Positions 30,280 through 60,869 of a DNA stretch of 64,000 bases are shown piece after piece. The stretch is taken from assembly GCA_964016885.1 (NCBI GenBank), contig OZ024740.1, forward strand, positions 298,654,001-298,718,000. Direction: 5' to 3'. Position 1 is the first letter of the stretch. Each line of letters begins with the position of its first letter. The notes under the pieces are model-generated. The model ran no database searches. It was not told the origin of the DNA and saw only the letters and a list, made by a program, of their open reading frames with translations. Source of the stretch: Eledone cirrhosa (lineage: Eukaryota). A program made the position numbers and the translations under genes.

Positions 30280-30517
30280 CAGAGAAAATGTGGTAAGGAA
30301 CCAGGTGGACCATAACGCACCAAAGTACTCAATACTTAGGGTAGTAGAGTGGGTAATAGGAACGAGTAGGACCCCGACGGCTGAGCTCAAGCTGTTTCGA
30401 CGGCTAATTCAGTCCAGAATTAGCCGTCGAAACAGCTTGAGCTCAGCCGTCGAAACGGCTTGAGCTCAGCTGTCGAAACGGCTTGAGCTCAGCTGTCGGG
30501 GTCCTACTCGTTCCTAT
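30280..30517 (-). mobile_element. Palindromic Penelope-like non-autonomous element with half hammerhead
   Basis: Inverted repeat 30356-30410 / 30417-30517 containing CGAAAC-stem-GTC; about 75-nt tail homologous to 53285-53365; lies in (TA)n. Confidence 0.7.
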
Positions 30518-30519
30518 AT

Positions 30520-31120
30520 ATATATATCTATAAATACATAATCGGAGAAAGATAATTGCGATACTCCGGCCAAATTCCAACTCACTCAACAAACATTAGG
30601 AAATACCTGAGTATATTCGGGGTGCTAACTAATTGTATTGTGTGGAAAATTGGCTGTATCATTTCATATGAGATATATATGGTACTCTCAATTACTCTCT
30701 CTGTTGACCACTGGCCACTGGTCTTTGTATTCTGTTGCATTTTTGCACATCATTGTTTTTGACAGCATTTAAGCTGTTTTAATGCCTGTTGTAGTGATGA
30801 GTTTTCTCATTTATATTATAAATATATACTTAAATGTGTCCTTGCATTTATAAGCTGACATATATGACGAGATGTAGAAAACGAGTTGAGCCCCGTCACC
30901 TTGATTGTATCTTGGGCTGATCAATATCGAAACAATTGTAATATGCAAATAAAGTTTCTACATATGCTGCAACACTGACTTTGGCTCTTTAAATCTATTT
31001 ACACTCTGCACACTACAGCAATAACACTGGAATACAACCCAAATGAAATGAACCTCGTAATAGCATTGAGTGCTTCGAATGGCACGCCACCTGTAACTGT
31101 TGTTACAATACACCTAACTA
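30520..31120 (+). mobile_element. Penelope-like element 3' end (pseudo-LTR)
   Basis: Decayed peptide RRKII.AIL..NSLNKH (possible GIY-YIG C-terminus, weak), then hammerhead motif, AATAAA at 30948, and tail with ATTGAGTGCT. Confidence 0.6.
30859..30945 (+). ncRNA. Type I hammerhead ribozyme fold with C3>A core substitution
   Basis: Stem I CATAT/ATATG; core aTGACGA; stem II GATGT...ATATC; GAAA; stem III A-CAATTG-T; GUA triplet with predicted cut after 30940. Confidence 0.65.
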
Positions 31121-31124
31121 ACAA

Positions 31125-56445: not shown

Positions 56446-58959
56446 TGACTACCTCATACTACTCCTATCTCTTTACGTCTTTCATGTAGGCAGCAGACAT
56501 AAACAGAGAGGAGTAGTATGAGGTAATCAAACTACTCCTATTTCTTTACGTATTGTGACAGAATCGCTTTGTAAATATATGTTTGTGTGAATGTATATTT
56601 GTGTTTGTGTTAATGTATGTGTGTGTTTGTGTGAATGTATGTCTGTGAGTGTGTATTTTTGTAAGTGTGTCTGTGTTTGCATGTTTATATTTATATACTC
56701 ATACATATATATGTATGTATATGCACACACATATACACATACATGTCAGTGAGTGGAAAAAATCCTCTCCTCATCTTTCTCTTTCTCTTTTTCTCTCTCT
56801 ACATATATAAATATCTGTCACTTAGTCAATCTATCTATCTGTATATCTCCCTTCATATATACAATCTCTCTCTCTCTCTTTCTTGCTCTGTCTGTATATA
56901 TGGTAGTTGAAGTGGTGGTGGTGGTGGTGGTGGTGGTGGTTGTAGTTGAGGGTAATACTAATTTGATAAAATCAAAGAACAACAATAGTTATAATGCACA
57001 ATAATTTTCATTATTTGGCAGTATCGGTAGAGGGCCGGACGCCATGCTTTGACGCATAGAGTTACGGCCCTTGCCATTCTGAGTTCAAATCCCGCCGAGG
57101 TTAACTTTACCTTTCATCCTTACGGGGTCGATAAAATAAAGTACCAGTAATACACTGAGTATTTGCTGGCCTTGTGCCAAAAGTAGAAACAATTATAATA
57201 TGGATATTATAATAAAAAATAACATTTATTTTATTTCCTAATAGTACCGTAGTGTATACATTGTCAAAATGTTCTGTTGTATTTAAAAAACACCTGACCA
57301 CTAACATAAATCAACTGCATTTCTGAGATAAAGAAAGAAAACCAAATATATGTAATATAACAACTTGTGAGTGTGTTTAAGATACCTAACATGACACCTC
57401 CTCAATTTGTTTCACTTTCAACTGACTGTCTTAGATCATGACTTTGTTAAGCAAGTACAATGCTGAAACAGATACATATAAATATCATCATCATCATCAC
57501 CATTTTACGTCTGTTCTTCCACGCTAGCATGGGTTAGACGGGTTGTCCTGTTGCGGGCAGTGTCCGGTAGGCTGACCTTGTCTTGCTCATACAGGAACCG
57601 ATTCTGGCTTGATTTCTACAGCTGGATGCCTCAGTAACACCAACCTCATTTTCAGTGAGTGCTGGGTGCTTTTTTTCCGTGACACCTCCACAACCACTTT
57701 ACACTGGAACGATAGGGACCCCAGTCCTATCATCTCATTTCTACAGCTGAGTAAACTGGAGCAATGTGAAATAAAGTGTCTTGCTCAAGGAAACAGCACA
57801 TCACCCGGTCCGAGAATTGAACTCACAACCTTTCAATTGCAAGCCTAATGCTCTAACTACTAAGCCATGTGCCAAATATATATATGCATATAATTCTGTG
57901 TGTGTGTACCTCCCGCATCTTAAAACCCCACCACTCATTCACAACCCTATACTCCCACCCTTCATCTGATAAGTGCCCCATCACAAAAAGCAGCCAGTCC
58001 ACACTGCAAAGTGGTCATGTAGGTGACAAAACAAAAAGCGCTTAGTCTACACTGTAAATGTGGTTGGCATGAGGAAAGGCATGTAGCCATATAGTGTAGT
58101 ACCTCACTATTATCTTTGGTAAGGTGAGAGAAGCTCTATGCTTATACAGCCCTTGGTTCATCATGTGTTTAAAATGGTCGATAGAGTTATCGAAAATTAA
58201 ATATCTTGTTAAGGATAGTTAAAATAACAGAGCATTAATATTCAATATTACAAAAAAGTAAATGTTACCAATTTACACTCTTTCCTTTATTTCTACATCT
58301 GTTTCAATATGGTCATAATGGTACATGTATTTGCAGAACAACTGGAAACTATTAGTTATCAATTAACTACACCATACATATTACCTATAACTCACATATC
58401 CTCAGGAAATTATAAAGAATAAAATGAGGTTTACTAAGTTCACGAGGTTTCAATAATAAATACAGTATCAAAACAGTTAGCTTAGAGCAAGTAATTAACT
58501 TCAAAAAGCATATTATGTAGATAGAATTTTTTCACCATGCAAGACTATAGGTTGAGTTACAATTTACAATGTTATTGGTTACTTTTCTTTATAGTTAGTG
58601 ATATCTGTTGCGTGACATTACAGGAGTGGAAACTTATTTAATAGACGGTAGTAAGTGGGTTTAAGTATTATTTATTTATTTAGAATGTTATTATTTTTCT
58701 TTATATAGATTGACTAAAGTTTGTTATTAAAGTTGCAGGAAGTGTTCTTAAGAAGCAGTATTAGGCACAGAGAGGGGTTTAGTGTTTTATGCTGAGATAT
58801 AATGTATAAAAACGAAAAATAATGTATAAAGGAATATGTAAAGTATATGCAGCATATGTGGAATTACTGTATTTATCAGTCTAGTTCAGTTTATATATAT
58901 GTCCCACTCTTGCAAGCAGGGAAAGGCAAGCGTAAAATGATGATGATGATGATATGATC

Positions 58960-59380
58960 GCTTGCCAGATTCAGATGTGTGATGCTTGGATATGGCTTAT
59001 TAAGCCTACTAGAGACTTTCCTTTGCACATTGACGGCAACTATGGATCTCCTTGGCCTTAGGTCTTGCATGAGGTTGCCTGTGAACCATCACACTACAAT
59101 GGAGATCATAGTTCACTGGTTCTCTTTGTACATGGCTGCGACTGTGGCTCCTGAGACCAGGTTTGCTCAAGCAAATCTTTCGACACTCAGGGCACACCAA
59201 TTCAATGGAAACACCGATTGTTTCGAGGGATACACCAGGGCATTGCTTACGCACATCCTGTTTGATCTTCTCATGCTCTATGCATTTGTCCTCAAAATTA
59301 TGGACCCCATCATTCACCATTCCACACCAAGTTTCTCTTTCAAGAGCTTTTATCTCCCAGTCAGCCACCATCAGACCAGT
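58960..59380 (-). mobile_element. RTE/BovB-like LINE C-terminus with C2H2 zinc finger(s)
   Basis: WEIKALERETW..GVHNFE..CPECRKICLSKPGLRSHSRSH, then a second CRQC. Confidence 0.75.
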
Positions 59381-60677
59381 TTATATATATATATACACAC
59401 ACACACACATTCAGTATGTAACAGGTAAATTGGGACTATTTAAATATCTTTATTATTATTGGTATAACTTGGAAAAATCACACACACCCACACACCACTG
59501 TTCCTCATTTAGCAACCACCACAATTAATGACCACTCACTTACACTTACAAACACTTGCTTTTGTGTAGAGATATTTTTTACATACTTTTTAAATTTCTT
59601 TCATGTTAGGTATTTTTGTTTCTTCTTTATCCAACAAATACTTAAACACATATTTTGTTTTGTAAAAGATTTGCAAAATAAAACAAATGTACATTTATTA
59701 CAGTCACTAAGGTAGTGTTCCATTAGACTTTAACAAATATATTTATTCAGATAATCTAATTAACTCTTAAAATCCTATACAAAATGAGACCGCATTAGCA
59801 AACCATTCTTACAAAGTACAAAGCAGCACTTTGATTGCAAAGGATTAAAAATTAACGATTTTATCTCAATACTGTAAATTTTCACAATGATTTATTCATT
59901 GGTAAAATTACTACAAACATTTGAATTGACAAACCAATTTTTAGATTTTTTTCTGCTAAATCATTAAGTAAGTTTCCATACCCTCATAGACACTACCACT
60001 CATCAATATTGAAAGATATTTTATGACCAGGTAGTTGAAAAAGAATCTGGTTAAGTGAGTAATTAGTTCTCTGTCAAATTTGCTTTACAATTTGGCCACT
60101 AGGTCAGTGGCATGGAACCTGGTCAATAAGTGAGGAGTTGTGGTATGTGTGTGTGTGTGTGTGTGTGTGTGTGTGTGTGTGTGCATATATAAAGCACCCA
60201 ACCCACACTGTGAAATGGTCATGTAAGTGTCACGACAAAAAGCACCCAGCACATACTGTAAATGGGGCTCGTGTTAGGAAGAGCATCCAGCCATAGAAAC
60301 CAAGCCAGAAACAGTTCAGTATGAGCAAGACACAGTCATCTGATCCAACTTGCCCCACATGGGACAACCCGTCTAACCCATGCTAACATAGAAAATAGAT
60401 GTTAAATGATGATGATACAGCCCATACTGTAAAGTGGAAGTGCTGGTGCCCCAATAAGAAGCATCCAGTTTGCTCTATCAGATGACAGTGGTGGGGCAAT
60501 GGTAAAATGTACCTGGTACACACCCAGTAATGATTGGTTAGGAAGGGTATCCTTCATGGCAAGAATGGAACGTATGAACAAAACAGTCATCTGACTTGTC
60601 TAGTCTCAGAACATGATAGCCCATCTAACTGATGCAAGCATGGAAAGTAGATGTAAACTAGTGATGATATATATATA

Positions 60678-60869
60678 CAATGTGAGTCCTGGGTTCAGTT
60701 GGGAGTAACCGCAGTTAGTAAGGTACTCAATACATTAGTAGAATGTAAACATCAAGTTTAATATAGAAATGGCTTCTACAGGACTAGAACTGTTTCATTC
60801 AAAAGAAATCATGATATATTTTTATTTAAACAGTTTTAATCCTGTAGAAGCCATTTCTATATTAAACTT
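60678..60869 (-). mobile_element. Palindromic Penelope-like element with half hammerhead
   Basis: Inverted repeat 60754-60795 / 60828-60869; minus strand reads GAAA-CAG-ttctagtc-CTG-TA; tail motif ATTGAGTACC. Confidence 0.65.

What the first reader, a model, noticed from the sequence alone, without database searches (positions are those of the whole stretch)
30280..60869. About eight divergent hammerhead-bearing mini-elements share one architecture and a motif about 44 nt from the 3' end
Seen: six elements with little overall identity read GAAA-stem III-GUH (decayed in one), then a tail with ATYRAGYRCY. Motif sites are 30324-30333(-), 31065-31074, 36347-36356, 43288-43297, 53310-53319 and 60722-60731(-), each roughly 40-46 nt from where the element meets microsatellite or flank. 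Two more (18899, 52786) share only the hammerhead half. Inference: a non-autonomous Penelope/retrozyme-like system whose fixed-distance motif is a cis signal for RT priming or endonuclease recognition. I do not know of a description of this motif.
Basis: partly seen in the sequence, partly recalled or inferred. Interest (0 to 1): 0.8.

Follow-up and report, generated by a model that had tools for sequence, protein, structure and literature searches.

The report
Twin hairpins mark Penelope retroelement ends
These short repeats are cut-off ends of Hydra-type Penelope jumping genes (coding parents found for two of five families), and their shared motif is half of a small paired hairpin, present twice and conserved in many marine relatives, that likely tells the element's reverse transcriptase where to start copying, which would explain the long-unexplained tails and inverted ends of these elements.

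Summary
The six motif sites are real. They lie in five high-copy families of 5'-truncated, mostly 5'-inverted ends of Penelope-like retroelements (PLEs). Two families (three of the six sites) trace to coding Hydra-clade PLEs, one with intact tandem arrays, so "non-autonomous" is wrong for them; three families have no parent found. No window copy keeps a whole hammerhead core, but longer copies do, often with variant cores.

New: the motif is the 3' strand of a small bulged hairpin that covaries across 70 instances from marine Hydra-type elements. Full-length units carry it twice (SL1, SL2) between hammerhead and start codon. Element ends fall 5-9 nt before either hairpin, in a UAUA-like stretch that matches the (TA)n target. 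The "44 nt" is the SL1-to-SL2 spacer. In 80 of 85 inverted family-A insertions one arm ends at SL1 and the other at SL2.

Likely mechanism (inferred, untested): each hairpin positions an RT for target-primed initiation, one per cut DNA end. Seven paper searches found no description. The scan noted PLE hammerhead tails in other genomes, but no note shown mentions this hairpin pair.

The parts
30279..30516 (-). Family A (subfamily A2) insertion: tail-less inverted arm (about 30407-30516, with a 23-bp tandem duplication) plus forward arm with the 3' half of the hammerhead, SL1 and tail; between TA runs
   Evidence: 93% to the leader of the intact unit L469
30324..30350 (-). SL1 hairpin, with the motif as its 3' strand
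   Evidence: structure
30830..31122 (+). Family C forward arm, no inversion: full type I hammerhead layout (30858-30946, core C3 mutated), SL1 with long loop (31003-31074), tail
36014..36398 (+). Family B insertion: inverted arm (palindrome 36053-36233), decayed hammerhead (36166-36250), SL1 (36304-36356), tail, then TA run
43115..43334 (+). Family E forward arm, no inversion: decayed hammerhead (43148-43232), decayed SL1 (43273-43297), tail, then CA-rich flank
53180..53364 (+). Family A (subfamily A1) insertion: inverted arm 53182-53221, forward arm with hammerhead 3' half (53245-53267), SL1 (53293-53319), tail; between TA runs
53414..53500 (+).
   Evidence: 78-85% to L433 and L250
60682..60870 (-). 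Family D insertion: palindrome 60754-60869, minimal hammerhead truncated inside its 5' core, SL1 (60722-60744), tail
18899..18948 (+). Tail-less arm of an A-like subfamily, ending before SL1, between TA runs
   Evidence: 78-82% to tail-less arms in L002, L096, L128
52781..53050 (+). Decayed inverted duplication with a possible hammerhead 3' half and tail; family not established
   Evidence: only weak AT-rich hits among 1.9 Mb of loci

Best explanation
The elements are truncated, mostly 5'-inverted ends of Penelope-like retrotransposons (Hydra clade shown for families A and B, likely for C, D and E), and the motif is the 3' strand of a covarying hairpin that full-length elements carry twice and that likely positions the reverse transcriptase to start just upstream of it. 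Shown: in tandem units the order is ORF, 3' UTR, hammerhead, SL1, 45-50-nt spacer, SL2, start codon; ends cluster a few nt 5' of each hairpin in a UAUA-like linker; inverted insertions nearly always join one SL1-ended arm to one SL2-ended arm. Inferred: the GIY-YIG nuclease cuts both strands of a (TA)n target; two RT units, probably a dimer, each bind one hairpin and anneal one freed TA end to the linker in front of it; the cDNA from SL2 carries the tail, the cDNA from SL1 lacks it; both stop early and are joined head to head, giving a hairpin-shaped insertion with a one-sided tail. Read-through RNA across a tandem junction would be the template; the hammerhead need not cut.
For: Coding parents: A in L311-L314, L469, L488; B in L470-L474, including a full repeat-ORF-repeat copy. 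Two hairpins before the start codon in A, B and other own-genome families, and at least two motif copies in 25 of 43 usable 5' leaders from metagenome relatives, at least one in 36 of 43 (five rows with negative coordinates dropped). Covariation over 70 instances, against 2,000 permutations: pair above the bulge 64/70 vs 49.6, next pairs 45/61 vs 25.8, 34/44 vs 17.2, 22/38 vs 13.3; outer control pair 30/70 vs 31.9. A TATA/ATAT 4-mer lies 3-11 nt before the hairpin in 37 of 61, against 9 of 61 in an upstream window. Family A arms in loci not chosen for A: 19 end at SL1, 27 at SL2, 10 elsewhere, of 56; 14 of 15 inverted pairs are one of each; 80 of 85 over all loci; E 10 of 10, D2 4 of 5. In vitro, an Anolis PLE protein cuts and extends both strands, starts RT at two internal sites whose spacing is the tail, works with a dead hammerhead and is predicted to be a dimer (PMC11167929, parts 1-2 of 4 read).
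Against: No binding or initiation was measured. Minimum-energy folds of four hairpin-bearing regions recover neither hairpin pair cleanly (one partial), so the hairpins would need protein. G-U versus A-C counts (11 vs 5) only weakly favour the RNA strand over DNA. The base pair at the foot of the stem barely varies in the metagenome set (57/70, permutation 57.1). Related sequences can inflate covariation. No coding parent or SL2 was found for C, D or E. Five of 85 A pairs are of one kind, and C (5 of 10) and D1 (1 of 6) pairs were often unclassified. Hydra tails (about 60-120 nt) are longer than the 30-40 nt of described PLE tails, and the Anolis element belongs to another clade.
Confidence: 0.62

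Rival explanations
1. The hairpins act as DNA (cruciform or single-stranded cDNA) and are recognised by the GIY-YIG nuclease, which cuts the element's own DNA intermediate in the TA-rich linker; the ends are cut sites, not RT start sites.
For: Same end positions are predicted. Craig et al. ascribe tails to nuclease resolution of an intermediate (PMC8557442 passage), and the Drosophila tail was needed for nuclease recognition (as cited in PMC11167929). The motif core is nearly its own reverse complement (control), as a dimer's DNA site would be.
Against: Hairpins are weak and would hardly extrude from duplex DNA; some G-U pairs occur; the only in vitro PLE data show ends made by RT initiation on RNA.
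Confidence: 0.15
2. Only SL2 sets a start; the inverted arm arises when the first cDNA folds back and copies itself (or by self-priming on an antisense template), and SL1 is merely where that synthesis stops and jumps to the target.
For: Self-priming was proposed for head-to-head PLE inversions (PMC3846280 passages). 75 of 80 mixed pairs have arms of about equal length with palindromic joints.
Against: The tail-less arm reaches further 5' than the tailed arm in 4 pairs (by up to 1,000 nt) against 1 the other way, and 2 pairs have no tail at all (also L313), which copying the tailed arm cannot give. SL1 and SL2 share sequence, bulge and linker.
Confidence: 0.08
3. The short elements form a non-autonomous, retrozyme-like system of their own, mobilised in trans through small or circular RNAs; this may hold for C, D or E.
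For: No coding parent found for C (0 of 58 hits), E (0 of 29) or D (2 of 122; the one inspected is a separate neighbouring insertion). Their shared upstream sequence runs for hundreds of bases without an ORF.
Against: A and B have parents. C, D and E have variable 5' ends, the same inversion and the same hairpin; no short hammerhead-bearing tandem arrays were seen. Family A's own 3' UTR is about 800 nt, so short walks would miss an ORF.
Confidence: 0.09
4. The conserved unit serves expression: an internal promoter (TA-rich box plus downstream element) or a translation signal before the start codon; ends fall there only because the linker is TA-rich.
For: SL2 lies 14-62 nt before the ATG; a TATA-like box was noted in rotifer pLTRs; TA microhomology alone would attract ends.
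Against: Ends cluster within a few bases at both hairpins although the UTRs hold many other TA-rich stretches; a promoter would not need covarying pairs; it does not explain one-of-each pairing.
Confidence: 0.06

Closest known systems
Hydra clade of Penelope-like elements (Craig et al. 2021, PMC8557442; includes Hydra-1_Obim from an octopus)
   Same: C-terminal GIY-YIG without CCHH, DKT, CxCx5C linker, flanking CxxC and CxH, (TA)n targets, type I hammerhead near the 3' end, inverted 5'-truncated copies. The hairpin is visible, unremarked, in their consensus ends for a coral and a sea cucumber (File S7).
   Different: The paper describes no hairpin pair. Units here are longer (3.5 and about 4.9 kb against under 3 kb), tails are about 60-120 nt, and hammerhead cores include U3-A8, U4C and one-base-longer variants.
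Poseidon element PAc of Anolis carolinensis (Frangieh et al. 2024, PMC11167929)
   Same: Two internal RT start sites whose spacing is the tail; both target strands cut and extended; template runs into the 5' leader; hammerhead cutting not needed.
   Different: Another clade; starts inside an AC-rich stem-loop in the ORF, with no homology to the target. Here starts lie in the leader, before two copies of one conserved hairpin, in a linker that matches the target.
Non-LTR retrozymes (Cervera and de la Pena 2020, PMC7229834; bioRxiv 10.64898/2026.07.22.740005)
   Same: Short, high-copy, type I hammerhead, tied to PLEs.
   Different: Retrozymes are non-coding tandem repeats of 170-400 nt; these are dispersed truncated ends, and their tandem form is a coding 3.5-kb unit.
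3' stem-loops bound by LINE RTs, L1 twin priming, and the telomerase alignment region (recalled, not from a call)
   Same: An RNA structure recruits the RT; a short stretch pairs with the DNA primer; two primers can give an inversion.
   Different: Here the hairpin lies 3' of the start and is not copied from its own start; the inversion duplicates the forward arm, which L1 twin priming does not.

Membership tests
Hydra-clade PLE | Single ORF with RT and C-terminal GIY-YIG lacking CCHH | tested here: met
   Family A open ORF of 717 aa from the ATG, B in pieces; read by eye. Pfam found no family in two A pieces.
Hydra-clade PLE | DKT motif, CxCx5C linker, CxxC and CxH flanking the nuclease E and N | tested here: met
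   Present in A and B; features from PMC8557442 section 11.
Hydra-clade PLE | N-terminal RWK motif | tested here: inconclusive
   A has RWR; the region is frameshifted in the B copies read.
Hydra-clade PLE | RT groups apart from Neptune and Penelope/Poseidon | tested here: met
   Tree of 23 rows: A and B fall with Hydra-type homologues, split from own Neptune and Penelope rows at 100/100. Published Hydra references were not in the tree, and the Penelope branch is long.
Hydra-clade PLE | Insertion into (TA)n | tested here: met
   Alignments of copies; 41 of 46 SL1/SL2-ended A arms abut a microsatellite.
Hydra-clade PLE | Canonical hammerhead in the terminal repeat | tested here: inconclusive
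   All three stems in long copies of A-E; core canonical in C and D, U3-A8 in A, mostly U4C in B, one extra base in E. Cleavage not tested.
Hydra-clade PLE | Generally shorter than 3 kb | tested here: not met
   A unit 3,531 bp, B about 4.9 kb; a tendency in the paper, not a strict criterion.
Hydra-clade PLE (families C, D, E) | Terminus joined to a Hydra-type ORF | tested here: inconclusive
   No link found; assignment rests on the shared hairpin, hammerhead, inversion and target.
EN+ PLE architecture | Partial tandems (pseudo-LTR), adjacent inverted 5'-truncated copy, one-sided tail | tested here: met
   L274, L469, L474, L488; inverted arm in 70 of 78 A, 17 of 32 B, 9 of 30 C, 36 of 49 D, 11 of 26 E copies.
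Non-LTR retrozyme | Non-coding short tandem units, each with a hammerhead | tested here: not met
   Tandem units of A are coding and 3.5 kb; no short hammerhead arrays seen among the loci fetched.
Non-LTR retrozyme | Abundant small circular RNA | not testable with these tools
   No RNA holder listed.

The most novel reading that the evidence does not exclude
Hydra-clade PLEs across cnidarians, echinoderms and molluscs share a paired, sequence-specific RNA hairpin that is the binding site of their telomerase-related RT. Two copies load two RT units on one transcript, each primed by one end of a double-strand cut in (TA)n through a short alignment stretch. This would be the first defined RNA recognition element for a PLE and a single mechanism for PLE tails and inverted ends.
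Probability: 0.5. Interest if true: 0.82.

Novelty: new variant of a known kind. Interest (0 to 1): 0.7.

Why it matters
How PLE reverse transcriptases, the closest relatives of telomerase, pick their RNA, and why PLE insertions have one-sided tails and inverted 5' ends, are open questions; the papers read offer nuclease resolution or self-priming as guesses, and one in vitro study mapped two start sites without a conserved signal. A hairpin of about 25 nt, conserved in distant animal phyla, standing just behind both ends, plus an intact and apparently recent 717-aa element, makes the question directly testable. It also gives a cheap signature for classifying tens of thousands of short palindromic repeats in this genome that look like MITEs. 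The elements themselves are of a known kind.

Tried and rejected
Rfam at E up to 5: no hammerhead or other real family, only chance microRNA-like hits on palindromes. MITE, Helitron or Crypton readings of the palindromes (recalled classes): dropped once the arms led into RT ORFs. GIY-YIG search gave Neptune- and Penelope-type families whose 3' ends, in the part shown, lack this hairpin; they are not the parents. Search for a canonical core before family A's GAAA found 17 mostly chance joins; the true core is U3-A8. MAFFT alignment of the hairpins did not open the loops, so no covariance model was built and pairs were counted by script. The reverse-strand control is invalid because the short motif is nearly palindromic. 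The B reference failed and B gave no inverted pairs (7 arms). Walking upstream of C and D found no ORF; the D-plus-SL2 pattern gave 7 unrelated joins. Sequencing runs: no RNA holder listed; no reads were laid. Exact feature coordinates come from reading the ruler, so they may be off by a base or two.
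Full report
Setting. The window lies on the largest contig of a 3.0-Gb, AT- and microsatellite-rich genome. Its repeat content looks cephalopod-like to me (recalled, not tested). It holds no PLE coding remnant.

Observation. The six motif sites are exact, and two more exist. The window count alone is within chance (8 vs 4.17; 7 of 100 shuffles). Genome-wide the association with the end is strong: 14 of 36 hits in 390 kb of arbitrary sequence have a microsatellite 36-48 nt downstream, against 3.0% for shuffled motifs, and a joint pattern gives 97,469 redundant matches against 23. 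Four of the six elements begin with a long inverted duplication. Genome searches gave 3,673, 2,773, 1,984, 2,542 and 1,329 first-look candidates for families A to E, of which 40 each were scored; these are lower bounds, not copy numbers. Alignments show a fixed 3' end at TA or CA runs, a fixed outer end of the inverted arm and a variable centre.

Hammerheads. No window copy has an intact 5' core. Longer copies supply all three stems: canonical cores in C (long stem II loop) and D (minimal), U3-A8 in A, mostly U4C in B, one extra base in E. Rfam detects none. Activity is untested.

Parents. A pattern from A's upstream side matched 2,126 places; long copies run through an 800-nt UTR into an ORF with RT and C-terminal GIY-YIG. 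Its motifs are those that define the Hydra clade in PMC8557442 (passages, section 11 and supplement parts 1, 2, 52, 53 read). Two loci hold head-to-tail arrays of a 3,531-bp unit with an open 717-aa ORF; two adjacent units differ at one base. A B subfamily (79% to the window copy) leads into a Hydra-type ORF in five loci, one a complete repeat-ORF-repeat copy. A tree separates A and B from the genome's Neptune and Penelope families. C, D and E could not be linked. Long coding copies, Neptune ones included, show the same inversion at kilobase scale.

The motif is half a hairpin. In every family the motif pairs with an RCUC upstream: four pairs, a 2-nt bulge on the 3' side, then a pyrimidine-purine pair and a variable upper stem, followed by RCY. 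The foot pair is A-U in A-D and G-C in E, and the upper stem differs between families (by eye). Published consensus ends show it too: clearly in Hydra-2_Amil (coral), Hydra-2_Ajap and twice at the 5' end of Hydra-1_Ajap (sea cucumber), weakly in Hydra-1_Amil and Hydra-1_Crog, and not in Hydra-1_Obim, which stops before it (6 consensus sequences). A metagenome search with a 42-protein alignment returned 78 loci (hosts unknown, inferred to be marine animals). Anchoring on the 3' strand gave 103 plus-strand and 38 minus-strand hits, 79 distinct; 70 had a CUC within 45 nt upstream (43% in shuffles). The pair above the bulge and the next three positions pair far more often than after permutation, while an outer control position does not (numbers under Best explanation). 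Relatedness can inflate this, but all four Watson-Crick types occur at the upper positions. Energy folding does not favour the hairpins.

Two copies. Tandem junctions show the hairpin twice between hammerhead and start codon: in A, in B and several other own families (1,377 matches vs 123 control), and in 25 of 43 usable metagenome leaders, 54-82 nt apart. After a hammerhead the motif was found in 18 of 28 regions; of the other 10, one was a false hammerhead hit, two carry variants, and the rest appear to end before SL1 or could not be judged.

Ends. Mapped on the full unit, A arms from loci not chosen for A end at SL1 (19), SL2 (27) or elsewhere (10). The linker before each hairpin resembles the target: a TATA/ATAT 4-mer at -11 to -3 in 37 of 61 instances against 9 of 61 further upstream, peaking at -8/-7. 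Inverted insertions join one arm of each kind in 14 of 15 unselected and 80 of 85 total A pairs, 10 of 10 E, 4 of 5 D2, 5 of 10 C and 1 of 6 D1 pairs (C and E loci were chosen by tail-bearing queries; most remaining pairs had an unclassified arm, one had no tail). Where arms differ by over 30 nt, the tail-less arm is longer in 4 and the tailed arm in 1.

Mechanism. Shown: architecture, parents for A and B, paired hairpins, end positions, one-of-each pairing. From the literature: an Anolis PLE protein cuts and extends both strands and starts RT at two internal sites that bound the tail (PMC11167929, parts 1-2 of 4). Inferred: each hairpin binds one RT unit and sets a start in the UAUA linker, each primed by one end of the cut (TA)n; the two truncated cDNAs join head to head. 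I put this at about 0.6; nuclease recognition of DNA hairpins is the main rival.

Literature. Seven searches found no description of the hairpin pair. Keyword passages were read in PMC4209133, PMC7229834, PMC3846280, PMC8969392, and part 1 plus passages of the 2026 retrozyme preprint (its supplements are closed). The library lacks most subscription papers and Repbase reports, where a curator may have noted the motif. A supplement search for three 7-mers showed only scattered hits in Naiad and Chlamys sequences among the first 10 places of each. Earlier scan notes list PLE hammerhead tails in other genomes (149 by words, 8 shown), none by sequence and none for the fuller word set.

Verdict. Known kind of element, undescribed cis structure with a testable role. 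New variant of a known kind; interest 0.7.

Noticed in passing
window 56446-56570 (+): Another inverted duplication with a one-sided tail, matching L456 at 80%; it lacks this motif and may be the end of a different PLE family.
   Followed up: partly
L197-L246 (own genome): At least six Neptune-type and one Penelope-type coding families; several Neptune 3' ends carry a U3-A8-type hammerhead core like family A, and possibly their own short tail motif.
   Followed up: partly
window 17179-18573, 31731-34117, 9959-10723, 44725-45897 (-): Fragments of RTE-like and other LINE reverse transcriptases; family names from recall.
   Followed up: no
window 54406-54999 (-): Tc1/mariner-like transposase fragment, 197 aa open; name from recall.
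   Followed up: no
window 11091, 18632, 31206, 36465, 53994, 55641, 57472, 57987, 60191, 60906: Abundant SINE-like repeat next to (CAT)n runs, often beside or inside the PLE ends; two copies are 96% alike over 294 nt.
   Followed up: no
G000:C1:378731817-378732166 and C4:369999852-370000006: Tail-only units amplified as 68-bp and 83-bp tandem repeats, each with one hairpin: a possible route from PLE tails to minisatellites.
   Followed up: no
L247 (G000:C13:36173000-36182999): A 2.3-2.7-kb tandem repeat that carries stacked A, D and E ends and what looks like a U2 snRNA sequence (identity from recall).
   Followed up: no
many loci, e.g. L002, L017, L032, L080, L093: Different families stack in one another's TA flanks, building clusters; each insertion leaves new targets.
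   Followed up: partly
window 48187-48196: Eighth motif match, in a GC-rich stretch, with no microsatellite after it; probably chance.
   Followed up: partly
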